IMG/VR virus record: IMGVR_UViG_3300042401_000753 | Coordinates: 1 to 59,381 of that record | Strand: one strand, 5' to 3' | Source: a virus | Lineage: Duplodnaviria; Caudoviricetes | DNA length: 59,381 nucleotides | Program-made: the position numbers and the translations under genes | Shown here: piece after piece, positions 1 to 59,381 of the stretch | How the letters are laid out: the number at the start of each line of letters is the position of its first letter | How positions within the stretch are numbered: the stretch's first letter is position 1 | The notes under the pieces: model-generated | Databases searched by the model: none | What the model saw: the letters and a program-made list of their open reading frames with translations, nothing else | Told to the model about the DNA's origin: nothing

Positions 1-127
1 GACTGATGCTTTAGTTCGTATGGGTCAAACAGAACAGCATCCTCAAGGTCAATGTTCTGAACACGGCGGATAAACCGCATAGCATAAGAAGAGTCAAGAG
101 ATACAGTAAGTGTTACATTCCTGTATG
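1..127. repeat. 127-bp terminal overlap, identical to 59255..59381 (circular assembly overlap)
   Basis: Exact match of the first and last 127 bases; an ORF reads through the join; 127 is a common assembler k-mer length. Confidence 0.95.
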
Positions 128-389
128 GATCATTCTTCTTAGCTGACTTGTCTTCAAGCTCAATAACAAGCTTGTCGCCCCATTCTTCATTCTCGTCTAC
201 AAACACAGCGGTAATGTGACCTTCGTATCCTGGGAAGTGTTGCTCCCAGATAATGTCACCTTTGTTCTTACCCTTGGTCAACTCTCGTGAGATAGCATTC
301 TCTGCACCCTCTTCGCAGCGAGTAACAAGTTTGCCATGTGAAGGGCTAAGGAATACTTTGTTCCCGCCTCGGTTTTGTTTGAATCCCAT
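1..389 (-). CDS. 5' part of a putative single-stranded DNA-binding protein (about 240 aa) that continues across the circular join into 58921..59381
   Basis: ATG at 389 opens MGFKQNRGGNKVFLSPSHGK...YAMRFIRRVQ, in frame with ORF 58921..59334; acidic tail ending DDDEVDF; next to primase-helicase. Confidence 0.65.
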   Translation of the reverse strand, partial: MGFKQNRGGNKVFLSPSHGKLVTRCEEGAENAISRELTKGKNKGDIIWEQHFPGYEGHITAVFVDENEEWGDKLVIELEDKSAKKNDPYRNVTLTVSLDSSYAMRFIRRVQNIDLEDAVLFDPYELKHQ

Positions 390-438
390 TGTATTATTTA
401 GTTGTGTTGTTTTGTTGGTGTGGTCTCAGTTAACTGAG

Positions 439-472
439 AAAAAGCCGGGGGAGATATGTGACCTCCCCCGGC
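439..472 (-). terminator. Rho-independent terminator
   Basis: 10-bp GC stem GCCGGGGGAG/CTCCCCCGGC followed by TTTTT on the minus strand, just downstream of the stop at 493. Confidence 0.85.
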
Positions 473-492
473 GAGTTTTGTGCGGCTAGATA

Positions 493-1962
493 CTATTCTT
501 CGTCGCCGTCATCTTCATCTTCGTCGTCGCTATCATCTTCTTCTTCCTCTTCTTCCTCGTCTTCTTCTTCGTCAACGACTGAAGCAGGAACTTTCTTAGC
601 TGCTGGCTTTGCCTTAGCTGCTGGCTTTACTTCTTCTTCTTCGTCCTCATCTTCGTCTTCCAGTTCATCCTTGGAAGGAGCTTTGGCCTTGCCTTTGGCA
701 GGAGCCTTGACAGCAGGCTTGACGGCTTCAGCAACTGCATCCATTGCAGCTTTGATCTTAGCAACCTTGGCGAGGATTTCTTCGCTAGGAGGGCTAAGAG
801 GATCAAGCACCACGCTGTCCTTGGTCAGGGTATTCTTGTTACCATTGCTGTCGATGCAGAGAGTTGCGGCGGCAAGCAGGTTCTCATCTCGTTTCTCGGA
901 ACCACATACGTGCATTGCATCCCCGATAAGGAAGATGTAGAAGAAACCCATCTTCACCTTACCCTTAAGGCCAAGGCTATTCTTGTAGTCAGCCTTGAGG
1001 TTCTTGGCATCAGTCTGAGTCAGAGTCTTGCCATCTTCTTCAAGCTCTTTGAGCTTGGCGACAGCAAGATTGATAACTTCAGTCTTGGCTTCGAGGTTCT
1101 TCTTGTCAGCGGCTTCTTGGTCACCGCCTTGATCTTCCTTGGTGGTAACCTTGAGTTCAAGCAAGGCACGGGTAGTGCTGAGAGGCAACTTGTTGAACAA
1201 GCGGATGGCTTTCTTACCGATCACTTGGCAAGTCTCAAAGGCTTTGACACCTTTCTGAATGCGGGACAAATCAGCAGGAGCAGCGCTGAACAGGTTAACC
1301 CAAGTGGCACCAAGGGATTCCTTGGCAAGGGAAGCAACCTGAGCTTCATACTTGGCAGAACGATCAGCAATGGTATCACTGGTATGAGCAACACTGACCA
1401 GTGTAGCAAAGGTATTTGCAAAGTCAGCCTTGGTCAGTTTCTCGCCATCAGCAACAGCAACACTGCCGTCTTCGCTGATGATGAACTTCTCACCAAGAAC
1501 CTTCTTCATGCTGGTTTCAGCAGACTCAGTTAACTGAGAAGTTGCTTTGACCAGAGCCTTGTCGCTAAGGCCAGCATCAAGCAGTGCAGCGGATTCTTTC
1601 TTGTCTTCTTCCTTGGCGGCAGCTTCTGACTCACGCTCCACTTTCTTGGCAATGATTGCATCAGCAGCATTCTTGTCCACGATAACCTTGTTCTTGGCGT
1701 GAGCCTTGAAGTCAGCTTTGATCTCAGTGATTGCAGCAGTCAGAGCTTTCTTCTGTGCTTTGCTTCCTTCAAACTCAGAGGTATCATACTCAGCACCTGA
1801 CTTGGCAGCCATGGCAATCTTCATAATGACTCCTTCGCTGAGTCCGGTTTCCTTAGCCTTGGTGGTCTTGTAAAGACCAAAGGTGACGGAGGATTCCACA
1901 CCATCAACATACAGTTTAGAGTTGGGATTGATGGGGGCGATTTTAGTTGTTTCTGTGCTCAT
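493..1962 (-). CDS. Lys/Ala-rich protein with histone-like KAPAK repeats and a long acidic tail; function unknown
   Basis: ORF 493..2043; likely start MSTETTK at 1962 after an A/C-rich leader; C-terminal KAPAKGKAKAP and poly-D/E tracts; has its own terminator. Confidence 0.8.
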   Translation of the reverse strand: MSTETTKIAPINPNSKLYVDGVESSVTFGLYKTTKAKETGLSEGVIMKIAMAAKSGAEYDTSEFEGSKAQKKALTAAITEIKADFKAHAKNKVIVDKNAADAIIAKKVERESEAAAKEEDKKESAALLDAGLSDKALVKATSQLTESAETSMKKVLGEKFIISEDGSVAVADGEKLTKADFANTFATLVSVAHTSDTIADRSAKYEAQVASLAKESLGATWVNLFSAAPADLSRIQKGVKAFETCQVIGKKAIRLFNKLPLSTTRALLELKVTTKEDQGGDQEAADKKNLEAKTEVINLAVAKLKELEEDGKTLTQTDAKNLKADYKNSLGLKGKVKMGFFYIFLIGDAMHVCGSEKRDENLLAAATLCIDSNGNKNTLTKDSVVLDPLSPPSEEILAKVAKIKAAMDAVAEAVKPAVKAPAKGKAKAPSKDELEDEDEDEEEEVKPAAKAKPAAKKVPASVVDEEEDEEEEEEEDDSDDEDEDDGDEE

Positions 1963-2023
1963 TTTGTTTGTTCTGTTGGTTGGGTTTGTTTGGTTTGCCA
2001 TCATTGGCGTAGTGCATACTCGC

Positions 2024-58674: not shown

Positions 58675-58683
58675 ATAACTGAA

Positions 58684-58857
58684 TTAATCTGAATAAGTTG
58701 GATGATTGTAATTAACAGGAGGTTTATTACAATCACACTTATCGTTAACGAATTTAGTTGCAACGTATGTAGAAGGCTTGTTCATTTCTTTAATCAAGAT
58801 GAAGTAAGAAATAAAGACTAATCCAATAGGAAGCATTATCAAAGCAGTGATTTTCAT
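58684..58857 (-). CDS. small membrane protein, 57 aa (not in ORF track)
   Basis: MKITALIMLPIGLVFISYFILIK... fills the gap. Confidence 0.5.
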   Translation of the reverse strand: MKITALIMLPIGLVFISYFILIKEMNKPSTYVATKFVNDKCDCNKPPVNYNHPTYSD

Positions 58858-58879
58858 TGTTATATTATATTAAAGTAAT

Positions 58880-58903
58880 GCGGCCAGATAAAGCGCTGGC
58901 CGC
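58880..58903 (-). terminator. hairpin after the SSB-like gene
   Basis: GCGGCCAG ... CTGGCCGC stem. Confidence 0.5.
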
Positions 58904-58920
58904 CCCGCTTGTTTTGTAGA

Positions 58921-59381
58921 TTAGAAATCTACTTCATCATCATCTTCAGGAGCAGGCTTGCCGCTACCGGATGATTTAGATTGCCCAAAGGATTTCTTTG
59001 GAGCCTCTTCTTCTTCTTCGTCATCTTCTTCAACAGGACGAGCTTGGCGCTTCTTACCAAGGTCATGTTCTTCGATCCACTCATTAAGGTGAGCAGTCAG
59101 GAAGTCCATACACTCTGTCTTGTCGTATGTCTTCTTCTTGTTAACGATCAGTTCTTTCCATTCTGGAATGTCATTATCTTCCAATGTCTGAGGGATTGGC
59201 TTTTGCTCATCTCGTTGATAGAGATTCCAGCCAGTTACCATCTTGTCTGGTTTAGACTGATGCTTTAGTTCGTATGGGTCAAACAGAACAGCATCCTCAA
59301 GGTCAATGTTCTGAACACGGCGGATAAACCGCATAGCATAAGAAGAGTCAAGAGATACAGTAAGTGTTACATTCCTGTATG
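58921..59381 (-). CDS. 3' part of the putative SSB (joins 1..389)
   Basis: Acidic, flexible C-terminus ending EDDDEVDF, like SSB tails. Confidence 0.65.
   Translation of the reverse strand, partial: YRNVTLTVSLDSSYAMRFIRRVQNIDLEDAVLFDPYELKHQSKPDKMVTGWNLYQRDEQKPIPQTLEDNDIPEWKELIVNKKKTYDKTECMDFLTAHLNEWIEEHDLGKKRQARPVEEDDEEEEEAPKKSFGQSKSSGSGKPAPEDDDEVDF

What the first reader, a model, noticed from the sequence alone, without database searches (positions are those of the whole stretch)
1..59381. Genome-wide lattice of a 12-bp palindrome (TCAGTTAACTGA), about one per kb: candidate undescribed phage DNA-marking system
Seen: 42 exact and about 15 single-mismatch copies around the entire circle, in both transcription arms, inside and between genes. 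A simple composition model predicts on the order of 0.01 copies. Most gaps are about 0.6-1.8 kb, and variants tend to fill gaps between exact copies. Most variants change the central dinucleotide (TCAGT-CA-ACTGA, TCAGT-AA-ACTGA) or one half-site base (TCAGTTAAATGA), and flanks often extend the palindrome (TCTCAGTTAACTGAGA). Established: this two-half-site design fits a homodimeric DNA-binding protein; dispersed chromosomal sites of this kind include parS, matS, SlmA/Noc sites, cyanobacterial HIP1 and DNA-uptake sequences, but I know no phage equivalent with this sequence and density. Inference: the sites load a protein along the whole genome, for compaction or positioning, shielding from host nucleases or SMC-type defence, self-recognition during ejection/packaging/host-DNA degradation, or titration of a host regulator.
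Basis: partly seen in the sequence, partly recalled or inferred. Interest (0 to 1): 0.95.

Follow-up and report, generated by a model that had tools for sequence, protein, structure and literature searches.

The report
Conserved 12-bp palindrome lattice in phage
An uncultured 59-kb phage, and distant relatives of it, carry the same 12-letter DNA palindrome about once every 1.4 kb, unusually evenly spaced and even written into protein-coding genes; it looks like a docking site for a paired DNA-binding protein that has not been identified.

Summary
TCAGTTAACTGA occurs 42 times (0 expected), with 16 one-mismatch copies, around a 59,381-bp phage record with 127-bp terminal repeats. By my ORF map, 22 copies lie in ORFs, always in the only open frame (Q-L-T-E/D). 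One supplies a stop codon and 19 are intergenic, often wedged between a stop and the next start. Codon-preserving shuffles give 0.57 in-gene copies against 23 seen. Spacing is far more even than chance (CV 0.52 vs 0.97; 0 of 20,000 simulations). A relative whose primase is only 54% identical has 16 copies in 22 kb, five at orthologous codons. No host-wide signature was found. A two-site scan of 185,579 species' genomes gave only three hits, all candidate-phyla-radiation or uncultured MAGs. In each, the palindrome brackets a small TrpR-family gene, and those genomes hold only 2-8 sites. The central 8 bp equal the E. coli trp operator core. The phage has no detectable TrpR homologue. Its best-conserved protein is a small HNH-like nuclease, but 80 other contigs with relatives of that protein lack the motif. 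Best reading: a lattice of sites for a dimeric DNA-binding protein, stoperator-like.

The parts
426..437 (.). exact site, intergenic (between ORF 3-389 and ORF 493-2043, both on the - strand)
1526..1537 (.). exact site inside ORF 493-2043(-), read as SQLTE
2394..2405 (.). exact site inside ORF 2024-2437(-), read as SQLTE; abuts the stop of ORF 2406-3485
3067..3078 (.). exact site inside ORF 2406-3485(-), PQLTE; same codons carry the site in L131 although the proteins are 29% identical
3812..3823 (.). exact site inside exonuclease gene 3487-4461(-); not conserved in L131
4485..4496 (.). exact site, intergenic: 0 nt after the stop of ORF 4497-4772, 23 nt before the start of 3487-4461
5124..5135 (.). 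exact site, intergenic, 41 nt downstream of the HNH-like gene 5177-5488
6076..6087 (.). exact site inside UvsX-like recombinase gene 5919-7043(-); not conserved in L131
7046..7057 (.). exact site filling the gap between the helicase stop (7059) and the recombinase start (7043)
8275..8286 (.). exact site inside helicase gene 7059-8849(-), SQLTD; identical in a contig of run X4
9752..9763 (.). exact site inside ORF 9478-9813(-)
10839..10850 (.). exact site inside ORF 10646-11368(-)
12176..12187 (.). exact site, intergenic
13227..13238 (.). exact site, intergenic, 45 nt upstream of ORF 12900-13181(-)
14453..14464 (.). exact site, intergenic, between a CGTGACCGAAAT repeat (14492) and the start of ORF 13825-14409(-)
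15793..15804 (.). exact site, intergenic, 2 nt after the stop of ORF 15807-16067
16749..16760 (.). exact site in small ORF 16718-16870(-), just upstream of ORF 16473-16736
19430..19441 (.). exact site in the divergent region between the two arms; identical in a contig of run X4
19841..19852 (.). exact site, 4 nt before ATG 19857
20499..20510 (.). exact site inside ORF 20332-20694(+)
21270..21281 (.). exact site inside ORF 21217-21714(+) (DUF3310)
22379..22390 (.). exact site, 5 nt before ATG 22396
24173..24184 (.). exact site, 1 nt after the stop at 24171, 21 nt before ATG 24206
27399..27410 (.). exact site, 2 nt after a stop, 9 nt before the next start
27850..27861 (.). exact site, 2 nt after a stop, 5 nt before ATG 27867
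30952..30963 (.). exact site inside ORF 30434-31837(+)
31941..31952 (.). exact site, intergenic
33553..33564 (.). exact site, intergenic
35101..35112 (.). exact site, 2 nt after a stop, 8 nt before ATG 35121
36501..36512 (.). exact site inside ORF 36316-36912(+)
38980..38991 (.). exact site whose final TGA is the stop codon of ORF 37552-38991; the next start is at 39001
40512..40523 (.). exact site inside ORF 39001-40806(+)
41674..41685 (.). exact site inside ORF 41342-42244(+)
43247..43258 (.). exact site, 2 nt after a stop, 2 nt before ATG 43261
45383..45394 (.). exact site inside the 2,655-aa ORF 44916-52883(+)
48746..48757 (.). exact site inside the 2,655-aa ORF
50546..50557 (.). exact site inside the 2,655-aa ORF; orthologous position also a site in L131
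52915..52926 (.). exact site at codon 11 of the terminase-like gene 52883-54808; conserved in L131
54757..54768 (.). exact site at codon 625 of the terminase-like gene; conserved in L131
55781..55792 (.). exact site inside ORF 55585-56004(-)
56518..56529 (.). exact site, 14 nt upstream of the RusA-like gene 55946-56503(-)
58325..58336 (.). exact site inside primase-helicase gene 56731-58674(-), WTQLTENP; the peptide stands at this column in 11 of 24 homologues aligned with the window's protein
5373..5384 (.). one-mismatch copy (TCAGTTAACTGC) inside the HNH-like gene; exact in L131
9101..9112 (.). one-mismatch copy TCATTTAACTGA at a gene junction
10076..10087 (.). one-mismatch copy TCAGTTAAATGA, intergenic
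10140..10151 (.). one-mismatch copy TCATTTAACTGA, intergenic
13776..13787 (.). one-mismatch copy TCAGTTAATTGA, between a CGTGACCGAAAT repeat (13810) and the start of ORF 13363-13737
17158..17169 (.). one-mismatch copy TCAGTAAACTGA, intergenic
18765..18776 (.). one-mismatch copy TCAGTTAAATGA, intergenic
18915..18926 (.). one-mismatch copy TCAGTTAAATGA
29864..29875 (.). one-mismatch copy TCAGTTAAATGA in ORF 27867-30185 (QLNE)
39165..39176 (.). variant TCAGTCAACTGA in an ORF (QSTE)
44160..44171 (.). variant TCAGTCAACTGA in an ORF (QSTE)
47210..47221 (.). variant TCAGTCAACTGA in the 2,655-aa ORF (QSTE)
47513..47524 (.). variant TCAGTCAACTGA in the 2,655-aa ORF (QSTE)
49175..49186 (.). variant TCAGTCAACTGA in the 2,655-aa ORF (QSTE)
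52295..52306 (.). variant TCAGTCAACTGA in the 2,655-aa ORF (QSTE)
57920..57931 (.). one-mismatch copy TCAGTAAACTGA in the primase-helicase gene (QFTE)
5177..5488 (-). candidate reader only: 103-aa protein P0158, a long basic helix plus an HNH-like motif; the most conserved protein between the window and L131 (73%)
   Evidence: link to the motif weakened

Best explanation
The 12-mer is the core of a roughly 20-bp two-half-site recognition sequence for a dimeric, sequence-specific double-strand-DNA-binding protein. Purifying selection on the DNA itself keeps an evenly spaced array of these sites along the whole phage genome.

By sequence type it is a TrpR-style operator, with the central AGTTAACT of the E. 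coli trp operator. I read the array as a genome-wide operator and roadblock network. In that respect it is analogous to mycobacteriophage stoperators, where one small repressor-type protein can hold or time transcription of all units at once. The preferred positions are exactly between a stop codon and the next start.

The reader protein is not identified. The phage has no detectable TrpR-family or other HTH gene.

Shown: enrichment, DNA-level selection, even spacing, family-wide and positional conservation, absence of hairpin covariation, and occurrence of the same palindrome around TrpR-family genes in three MAGs.

For: DNA-level selection.
- 42 copies against 0 expected.
- 23 in-CDS copies against 0.57 after protein-preserving shuffles.
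- QLT[ED] occurs 23 times against 0.44 expected, and 22 of the 23 use the identical codons.

Protein-site design.
- The flanks give a palindromic consensus.
- The two sides do not covary: Watson-Crick pairs at flank positions 1-6 are never above shuffle expectation.
- Half-sites alone are not visibly enriched (135 TCAGT in all).

Placement.
- 19 of 42 sites lie in the about 10% of sequence outside my ORF map.
- Nine of them sit 0-2 nt after a stop codon, and several sit 2-9 nt before the next start.
- Two sites (14453 and variant 13776) sit between a repeated candidate promoter motif and a gene start.

Family-wide conservation.
- L131, whose primase is 54% identical, has 16 exact copies in 21,950 bp.
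- L132-L134 also carry the motif.
- 5 of 7 alignable in-gene window sites are exact at orthologous codons, one of them in a protein pair only 29% identical.
- QLT[ED] is present in 15 of 25 primase homologues.

TrpR link.
- The only 3 hits of a two-site scan of 185,579 species' genomes each bracket a TrpR-family gene.
- One of them has three sites 40 bp apart in the gene's promoter region.
- E. coli trpO is printed as GAACTAGTTAACTAGTAC (PMC13762905, passages).

Precedent. Repressors that act at numerous sites across a phage genome are described in the abstract of PMC9283540 (search listing).
Against: No reader found.
- No TrpR homologue in the phage: best tblastn E 0.44, best HMM E 0.086.
- No HTH family was found in the ORFs scanned with Pfam or PHROGs.
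- My scans did not cover every one of the 73 ORFs.

Site properties differ from stoperators.
- 22 of 42 sites lie inside genes and show no clear preference for gene ends.
- Stoperators are asymmetric and oriented with transcription.

The host TrpR idea has problems.
- The exact palindrome is rare among the candidate hosts. 0 of 400 other genomes of the phylum and 0 of 60 of the same family have two or more sites. Single hits there equal the reversed-pattern control.
- TrpR-like genes in other lineages are bracketed by quite different palindromes. The host operators therefore evolve fast, while the phage motif is invariant across deep divergence.
- Phage sites lack the 20-28-bp perfect extension seen in the MAGs.
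- The three MAG proteins are only about 24% identical to each other.

The host is unknown. TerL relatives were found in 0 of 401 genomes of that phylum, and there was no meaningful DNA match to the three MAGs.

Even spacing is not an obvious requirement of a purely transcriptional role.
Confidence: 0.35

Rival explanations
1. The sites load a phage-encoded protein of unknown fold that acts structurally along the genome. Its role could be compaction or bridging into loops of about 1.4 kb, protection from host nucleases, or marking of self DNA. It would not be transcriptional control.
For: - The even lattice is independent of gene structure: 0 of 20,000 gene-aware simulations were as even, with the same trend in L131 (CV 0.645, P = 0.06).
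- Sites inside genes are conserved at orthologous codons.
- The motif is invariant over deep phage divergence, which fits a reader that travels with the phage.
- Dozens of ORFans have no family match.
Against: - No candidate protein was found. No ParB-, histone-like or HTH family appeared in the ORFs scanned.
- The roughly 7-fold enrichment at gene junctions is not predicted by a purely structural role.
- The second lattice found, GTTTAAAC in G464, is not evenly spaced.
Confidence: 0.2
2. The sites are cut or nicked by a phage nuclease, with the basic-helix/HNH-like protein P0158 (5177-5488) as the candidate. This would give localized interruptions, as in phages T5 and tf, or would start recombination-dependent replication at many points.
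For: - P0158 is the most conserved protein between the window and L131 (73%). It is 57-94% identical in 45 homologues, mostly on short contigs, of which at least four co-occur with primase homologues on the same 50-63-kb contig sizes.
- The invariant residues H57, G64, G65 and N81, plus D54, D56 and N72, fit an HNH motif.
- Other support for HNH: a weak Pfam HNH match at E 0.033, a model of pLDDT 77, and top fold matches to the colicin E9/E7 DNase HNH motif (prob 0.96 but E 0.35, about 30 residues).
- The gene lies between the exonuclease and UvsX-like recombinase genes.
- Repeated short consensus sites that are nicked in virion DNA are known: phage tf has 14 sites with consensus 5'-TACT/RTGMC-3' (PMC3517423, abstract and passages).
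Against: - 0 of 80 other viral contigs that encode 40-52% identical relatives of P0158 carry the 12-mer. Only 2 of the 80 show any dispersed palindrome.
- Known nick consensus sites are asymmetric and strand-specific.
- A palindrome cut symmetrically would fragment the genome.
- Ends or nicks could not be examined, because all runs are contigs.
Confidence: 0.15
3. The array is a decoy or sponge for a host TrpR-family repressor, so that an entering genome with 42-58 sites outnumbers the host's 2-8 operators and derepresses that regulon. The mirror image is also possible: hosts evolved a repressor whose operator equals the phage motif, so that incoming phage DNA titrates it and switches genes on.
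For: - The same palindrome brackets autoregulated-looking TrpR-family genes in all 3 hits of the genome scan.
- Those MAGs hold only 2, 8 and 3 sites in about 0.5-0.7 Mb.
- Other sites in them lie beside genes I read by eye from translated ORFs, with no family search, as DnaE/ThrRS, IleRS and a PriA-like gene.
- The phage has no TrpR homologue of its own.
- There is precedent for a lytic phage carrying sites for host proteins: phi29 has five parS sites and Spo0A boxes (PMC2731898, passages).
Against: - A sponge needs copy number, not even spacing or positional conservation.
- The operator is idiosyncratic to single genomes, whereas the phage family is diverse.
- No evidence ties this phage to those hosts.
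Confidence: 0.15
4. The motif does not act through protein binding to duplex DNA. It could be an RNA or DNA hairpin signal, a by-product of a biased mutation, repair or homing process, or a peptide motif (QLTE) needed in proteins.
For: - The palindrome would read the same in mRNA from either arm.
- It contains stop codons in two frames on both strands, as the sequence itself shows.
Against: - There is no compensatory pairing in the flanks, and the 4-5-bp stem is weak.
- 19 copies are non-coding, and 22 of 23 QLT[ED] peptides use identical codons. The peptide therefore follows the DNA, not the reverse.
- Sites arose by substitution without indels, and they are kept at orthologous codons.
Confidence: 0.05

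Closest known systems
Stoperators of Cluster A mycobacteriophages (L5, Bxb1 type)
   Same: Both have tens of copies of one 12-14-bp site spread over a phage genome of 50-60 kb. Many copies lie in short gaps between genes, and a single small protein is thought to act at all of them (abstract of PMC9283540, search listing).
   Different: Stoperators are asymmetric, oriented with transcription and mostly intergenic, and the phage encodes the repressor. Their consensus also differs between immunity groups. These details are recalled apart from the abstract. Here the site is a perfect palindrome, half the copies are inside genes in one forced reading frame, the spacing is even, no repressor gene was found, and the sequence is invariant across relatives.
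E. coli trp operator and TrpR; TrpR-family genes of candidate-phyla-radiation MAGs
   Same: The central 8 bp, AGTTAACT, are identical to trpO as printed in PMC13762905. The exact 12-mer brackets TrpR-family genes in L135, L136 and L137.
   Different: The outer two positions of each half differ from trpO (TC/GA against CT/AG). The MAG sites are perfect 20-28-bp palindromes with genome-specific flanks, present at 2-8 copies per genome. The phage has 42 copies, only a degenerate flank consensus, and no TrpR gene.
Host-protein binding sites in Bacillus phage phi29 (parS for Spo0J, 0A boxes for Spo0A)
   Same: A lytic phage carries several sites for host DNA-binding proteins that it does not encode, and these sites govern the fate of the whole genome (PMC2731898, passages).
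   Different: phi29 has five parS sites and about six consensus 0A boxes, not a lattice of 42. The proteins and effects are experimentally shown there; nothing is shown here.
Localized nick consensus sites of phages tf, T5 and phiKMV-like phages
   Same: A short conserved sequence recurs many times in a phage genome of similar size and layout. tf has two convergent arms, terminal repeats and 14 sites (PMC3517423).
   Different: Nick sites are asymmetric, all on one strand and unevenly distributed. Whether this phage's DNA is nicked could not be tested.
KorB operators (OB) of IncP plasmid RK2, ParB/parS, Noc and SlmA sites
   Same: All are palindromic 13-16-bp sites dispersed over a replicon and bound by a dimeric protein that acts at a distance.
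   Different: Those replicons or hosts encode the ParB-family or TetR-family reader, and no such family was found in the ORFs scanned here. Copy density is several-fold lower: 12 sites per 60 kb in RK2, as I recall.
HIP1 of cyanobacteria and DNA uptake sequences (recalled)
   Same: Both are strongly over-represented short words found inside and between genes.
   Different: They are signatures of the host chromosome. Here no genome among 185,579 species showed paired sites apart from three regulon-like cases.

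Membership tests
Stoperator system (Cluster A mycobacteriophages) | Tens of copies of one short site dispersed over the phage genome | tested here: met
   42 exact and 16 one-mismatch copies
Stoperator system (Cluster A mycobacteriophages) | Asymmetric site oriented with the direction of transcription (recalled definition) | tested here: not met
   The site is a perfect palindrome. Only the six TCAGTCAACTGA variants share one orientation.
Stoperator system (Cluster A mycobacteriophages) | Phage-encoded immunity repressor that binds the site | tested here: inconclusive
   No HTH or repressor family was found in the ORFs scanned. Many ORFans remain and not all 73 ORFs were scanned.
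TrpR / trp-operator type regulation | Palindromic operator with the AGTTAACT centre | tested here: met
   The 12-mer was compared with trpO as printed in PMC13762905.
TrpR / trp-operator type regulation | TrpR-family protein (PF01371) encoded by the replicon that carries the sites | tested here: not met
   Window and L131: best tblastn E 0.44 and 0.058; best profile E 0.086. The feature is met only in the three MAG loci.
TrpR / trp-operator type regulation | Binding of the protein to the site | not testable with these tools
   No tool models protein-DNA specificity; EMSA or DAP-seq is needed.
Localized nick systems (T5, tf, phiKMV-like) | Single-strand interruptions at the consensus in virion DNA | not testable with these tools
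   All 24 runs listed are kept as contigs, which cannot show ends.
Localized nick systems (T5, tf, phiKMV-like) | Asymmetric consensus confined to one strand | tested here: not met
   The site is a palindrome, whereas tf's sites are all in the top strand.
Host-wide iterated palindrome (HIP1-like) or uptake sequence | Comparable density in the host chromosome | tested here: not met
   The two-site scan of genome contigs gave 3 stretches only. Those genomes hold 2-8 sites per 0.5-0.7 Mb. In 400 other genomes of the phylum there were only single hits, equal to the control. Caveat: the scan sees only pairs 399-429 bp apart.
ParB/parS, KorB/OB type | ParB-family protein encoded with the sites | tested here: inconclusive
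   No ParB-family hit was found in the ORFs scanned. Absence among the ORFans is not excluded.
Restriction site avoidance or protection (HpaI-type GTTAAC) | Depletion or special handling of GTTAAC outside the motif | tested here: not met
   There are 63 GTTAAC in all, 43 of them inside CAGTTAACTG. The remaining 20 are close to the about 19 expected from base composition (my arithmetic).

The most novel reading that the evidence does not exclude
A diverse family of uncultured freshwater phages has written a 12-bp TrpR-type operator into its whole genome, in an even lattice that includes forced Q-L-T-E codons. It encodes no reader of its own. The lattice would couple the phage to a host repressor. 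It could act as a genome-wide switch that silences or releases the phage according to the host's metabolic state. It could act as an instant sponge that derepresses host genes on DNA entry. Conversely, it could be the signal that a host repressor-based sensor has evolved to detect.
Probability: 0.25. Interest if true: 0.9.

Novelty: new variant of a known kind. Interest (0 to 1): 0.8.

Why it matters
If a single protein reads 42 evenly spaced sites that selection has forced even into coding sequence, this phage family has a genome-wide control or protection layer of a kind not described for palindromic sites in phages.

The motif is also a cheap, exact marker for the family in metagenomes.

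The match to operators of TrpR-family genes in candidate-phyla-radiation bacteria offers a testable route to two open problems: the hosts of these phages, and the function of those small regulators.

The chance finding of a second, different palindrome lattice in an unrelated phage (GTTTAAAC, 46 copies in 64.5 kb) suggests that the phenomenon is wider than one family.

Tried and rejected
Host-wide signature: rejected.

Hairpin or cruciform reading: rejected for lack of flank covariation.

Peptide-driven reading: rejected.

Insertion of a mobile 12-bp unit: rejected, because the alignments show substitutions and no indels at the sites.

Tc1/mariner-like end or footprint: considered from the CAGT/ACTG ends and dropped, because the flanking TA duplication does not fit. 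This was reasoning only.

Finding relatives in IMG/VR:
- A single-protein scan found none.
- The profile scan found only 27%-identical primases, and the four of these that I checked lack the motif.
- The two-site scan found 0.

Cultured phages: no DNA match, no TerL match, and primase at 30% identity or less.

Host assignment failed:
- No tRNA genes.
- The Shine-Dalgarno comparison was uninformative.
- The protein atlas returned only viral clusters.
- TerL relatives were found in 0 of 401 genomes of the MAGs' phylum.
- DNA of window 1-20000 against the three MAGs gave only chance-level matches, E 0.055 or higher.

Sequencing runs: no RNA holder is listed. All 24 runs are contigs, so starts, ends and nicks cannot be seen. 

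Literature: a search for the exact 12-mer found 2 unrelated papers. A search on phage genome, palindrome, overrepresented and evenly found nothing relevant among the 20 papers listed. 'Not in print' rests on these two searches only. Supplements were not opened.

An earlier count said '24 of 42 in ORFs'. The correct count is 22 in ORFs, 1 at a stop codon and 19 intergenic.

Full report
WHAT THE WINDOW IS. The window is a whole IMG/VR virus record of 59,381 bp with a 127-bp direct terminal repeat. My own ORF map is a greedy choice of long ORFs by arm; it has 73 ORFs and covers 90% of the sequence. It shows a leftward arm (1-19.6 kb and 54.8-59.4 kb) and a rightward arm (19.8-54.8 kb).

Recognisable genes:
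- exonuclease (3487-4461), UvsX-like recombinase (5919-7043), helicase (7059-8849) and primase-helicase (56731-58674);
- RusA (55946-56503) and a DUF3310 protein;
- a weak terminase large subunit match (52883-54808, E 1.2e-4);
- a lysozyme-like tail protein (34553-35098).

Most ORFs match no family. There is no tRNA gene and no near relative among cultured phages.

TCAGTTAACTGA occurs 42 times, and 100 dinucleotide shuffles gave none. There are 16 one-mismatch and 6 two-mismatch copies, so the distribution is sharply peaked on the exact word.

By my ORF map, 22 copies lie inside ORFs, one supplies the stop codon of ORF 37552-38991, and 19 are intergenic. The word has TGA in one frame and TAA in another on both strands. 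Every in-gene copy is therefore in the third frame and reads x-Q-L-T-E/D.

Three results show that the DNA word drives the peptide and not the reverse:
- QLT[ED] occurs 23 times against 0.44 expected from amino-acid frequencies.
- 22 of those 23 are written with exactly the same codons, and the 23rd is a one-mismatch copy.
- Shuffling synonymous codons while keeping every protein leaves 0.57 copies (maximum 3 in 200) against 23 observed. Permuting codons leaves 0.005.

THE LATTICE IS REAL. Gaps between exact copies run from 411 to 3,363 bp, with mean 1,411 and CV 0.515. Random placement gives CV 0.965 and a mean smallest gap of 33 bp. None of 20,000 simulations was as even or had a smallest gap as large. 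The result is unchanged under a null that keeps 23 sites in coding DNA and 19 at gene junctions. The claim that variants fill gaps is only a trend (P = 0.075).

Sites are also about 7-fold enriched outside ORFs: 19 of 42 lie in about 10% of the sequence. Many sit exactly in the junction between genes, 0-2 nt after a stop in nine cases and 2-9 nt before the next start in several.

DESIGN OF THE SITE. The flanks give the consensus A-w-T-Y[12-mer]R-A-w-T (Y and R again in L131). This makes a 20-bp palindromic consensus. The two sides of individual sites do not covary, however. Watson-Crick pairs at flank positions 1-6 are never above what shuffling gives. That pattern is expected of two independent half-site contacts by a dimeric protein on duplex DNA. 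It is not expected of a hairpin in DNA or RNA.

GTTAAC outside the motif is not depleted: 20 copies against about 19 expected by my arithmetic.

THE MOTIF IS A FAMILY TRAIT. The primase-helicase has homologues down to about 42% identity on contigs of 50-63 kb. The peptide QLTE stands at the same alignment column in 11 of 24 of these homologues. QLT[ED] occurs somewhere in 15 of 25 homologues, against an expectation of about 0.016 per protein (with the frequency).

Only four related DNA stretches could be fetched:
- L131 comes from a 52.9-kb contig and has a primase 54% identical. It carries 16 exact copies in 21,950 bp.
- L132, L133 and L134 are 1.3-2.3 kb long and carry 1, 1 and 2 copies.

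In 14 orthologous protein pairs between the window and L131:
- 5 of the 7 alignable in-gene window sites are exact sites at the same codons in L131. One is in a pair only 29% identical.
- Of the 9 alignable L131 sites, 5 are exact in the window, one has one mismatch and 3 are absent.
- No gain or loss involves an indel.

Sites are therefore made by substitution and then held by purifying selection. Spacing in L131 shows the same tendency (CV 0.645, P = 0.06).

Contigs of other sequencing runs 85-100% alike cover the first 20 kb. Two contigs of run X4 are identical across the sites at 8275 and 19430.

NOT A HOST SIGNATURE, BUT AN UNEXPECTED MATCH. I scanned one genome from each of 185,579 species for two copies 399-429 bp apart, and found three stretches only. 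The three are:
- a Candidatus Saccharibacteria MAG (L135);
- a Candidatus Nomurabacteria MAG (L136);
- an uncultured-bacterium MAG (L137).

In all three, the two copies bracket a small gene of the Trp-repressor family:
- L135:346-630 scores 43.5 bits on PF01371 against a cut-off of 27.
- L136:1509-1928 scores 21.9 bits, below the cut-off.
- The L137 gene is split by a frameshift, but both halves match the family profile. L135 and L136 are members of that profile by construction.

L136 has three copies 40 bp apart between this gene and its divergent neighbour, plus one copy behind the gene.

The whole MAGs hold 2, 8 and 3 copies in about 0.5-0.7 Mb. That is a regulon-like number and about a hundred times less dense than in the phage. 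Other copies lie next to genes that I read by eye from translated ORFs, without a family search, as DnaE/ThrRS, IleRS, a membrane protein and a PriA-like gene.

The central eight bases equal those of the E. coli trp operator, printed as GAACTAGTTAACTAGTAC in PMC13762905 (passages).

LIMITS OF THAT MATCH.
- In 400 further genomes of the same phylum only 24 have a copy, each a single one. The reversed control word hits 20 genomes by my count.
- In 60 further genomes of the Nomurabacteria MAG's own family none has two copies.
- TrpR-family genes are common in the phylum (44 of 151 genomes). In 6 of 30 loci inspected the gene is bracketed by long perfect palindromes, but each lineage has its own sequence.
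- The operator thus evolves fast in these bacteria, whereas the phage word is invariant over deep divergence.
- The phage sites also lack the 20-28-bp perfect extension of the MAG sites.
- The phage and L131 encode no detectable TrpR relative.
- Nothing else links the phage to these hosts.

By my rough estimate, three independent exact matches to one 12-bp palindrome are unlikely to be chance. They show that this word is a TrpR-type operator. They do not show who reads it in the phage.

A PHAGE CANDIDATE, AND WHY IT IS WEAK. The most conserved protein between the window and L131 is P0158 (103 aa, 5177-5488; 73% identical). It has 56 homologues, 45 of them 57-94% identical to it. It has a long arginine-rich helix followed by D-x-D-H ... 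N ... N with invariant H57, G64, G65 and N81.

The evidence for an HNH fold is modest:
- Pfam HNH matches only weakly (E 0.033, below cut-off).
- An AlphaFold model has mean pLDDT 77.
- Its best fold matches are the HNH motif of colicin E9/E7 DNases, over about 30 residues (prob 0.96, E 0.35).

The gene sits between the exonuclease and recombinase genes, so it could be a site-specific nickase. However, IMG/VR holds at least 553 contigs with relatives of this protein. Of the best 80 (40-52% identical), none carries the 12-mer, and only two show any dispersed palindrome. The protein family is therefore not generally tied to a lattice.

OTHER LATTICES. One of those two contigs (L249; whole record G464, 64.5 kb) carries GTTTAAAC 46 times against 0 for the reversed control. 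The copies are dense in one half of the genome and not evenly spaced. The other (L221) carries TTAACAGTGTTA 7 times forward and 2 times reverse in its first 7.5 kb. Dispersed palindromes of different sequence thus occur in unrelated uncultured phages.

WHAT IT MOST LIKELY IS. I put about 0.8 on the general statement that this is an array of recognition sites for a dimeric protein on duplex DNA. Within that:
- I favour a genome-wide operator and roadblock role for a TrpR-type repressor (0.35). The reasons are the junction placement, the operator-type sequence and the stoperator precedent.
- A structural or protective loading array for an unknown phage protein gets 0.2; this is what the even spacing suggests.
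- Nicking or cleavage by the HNH-like protein gets 0.15; phage tf is the precedent.
- A decoy for, or a signal to, a host TrpR-family repressor gets 0.15; phi29 is the precedent for host-protein sites in a lytic phage.
- Readings that do not involve a protein on duplex DNA get about 0.05.

None of these is shown, and the decisive experiments are listed separately.

NOVELTY. I found no report of this word or of an evenly spaced palindrome lattice in a phage. That rests on two full-text searches only. It is best filed as a new variant of dispersed protein-recognition sites. It differs from the known cases in being palindromic, forced into coding frames, evenly spaced, invariant across a deep family, and without a known reader.

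Noticed in passing
window 4330, 13032, 13810, 14492, 14885, 15528, 16093, 16447, 17118: CGTGACCGAAAT occurs 9 times, always on the + strand, so it reads ATTTCGGTCACG in the sense of the leftward genes. Eight copies lie within 13.0-17.1 kb, mostly 25-85 nt upstream of small ORFs and followed by an AAGCTTAC-like word. It is a candidate early promoter or regulatory element.
   Followed up: partly
L249 (IMG/VR record G464, 64,518 bp): An unrelated phage carries the 8-bp palindrome GTTTAAAC 46 times, against 0 for the reversed control and about 1 expected. 36 of the copies lie in the first 32 kb, and the spacing is not even.
   Followed up: partly
L221:62-7454 (IMG/VR record G465, 53,134 bp): TTAACAGTGTTA, part of the near-palindrome TTAACAGTGTTAA, occurs 7 times forward and 2 times reverse within 7.5 kb.
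   Followed up: no
L148, L149, L153, L157, L172, L177 (genomes of the phylum of G002): Small TrpR-family genes are bracketed up- and downstream by perfect palindromes of 14-30 bp. The palindrome sequence differs in every lineage, for example AAAGCGATTTAAATCGCTTT, ATGATAGACTAGTCTATCAT and CTGTATGATATATCATACAG. This looks like a fast-evolving regulator-operator pair.
   Followed up: partly
window 39165, 44160, 47210, 47513, 49175, 52295: The variant TCAGTCAACTGA occurs six times, always in this orientation and always in late genes, read as QSTE. Its reverse complement would still encode QLTE but never occurs. L131 has none of this variant.
   Followed up: partly
window 5677-6033 (-): There is a second small HNH-like ORF next to P0158, with CxxC ... 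HH ... CxxC ... H. Its Pfam HNH match is weak (E 0.016, below cut-off).
   Followed up: no
window 44916-52883 (+): A single ORF of 2,655 aa lies just before the terminase-like gene. Its C-terminal 1,100 residues are 35% identical in L131. It was not scanned against any family library.
   Followed up: no
window, all 73 ORFs of my map: Only 6 of 73 ORF starts have a Shine-Dalgarno-like word upstream. The leaders are A-rich. This hints at a host that does not rely on Shine-Dalgarno pairing, but my comparison with the MAG loci was uninformative.
   Followed up: partly
window 2401 (inside the site at 2394-2405): One contig of run X5 (about 5% diverged) has 27 extra bases placed within this site at the junction of two ORFs. 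It may be an alignment effect (table 4).
   Followed up: no
L137:1694-2093 (-): The TrpR-family gene of this MAG is split between two frames. Profile positions 1-48 and 62-108 match in adjacent pieces. The cause is a frameshift, an assembly error or a pseudogene.
   Followed up: partly
window 54802-55332 (-): This 176-aa ORF has a cysteine-rich N-terminal half and a C-terminal stretch that looks like a helix-turn-helix by eye. It is 38% identical in L131 and has no family match. It is another possible DNA-binding candidate.
   Followed up: no
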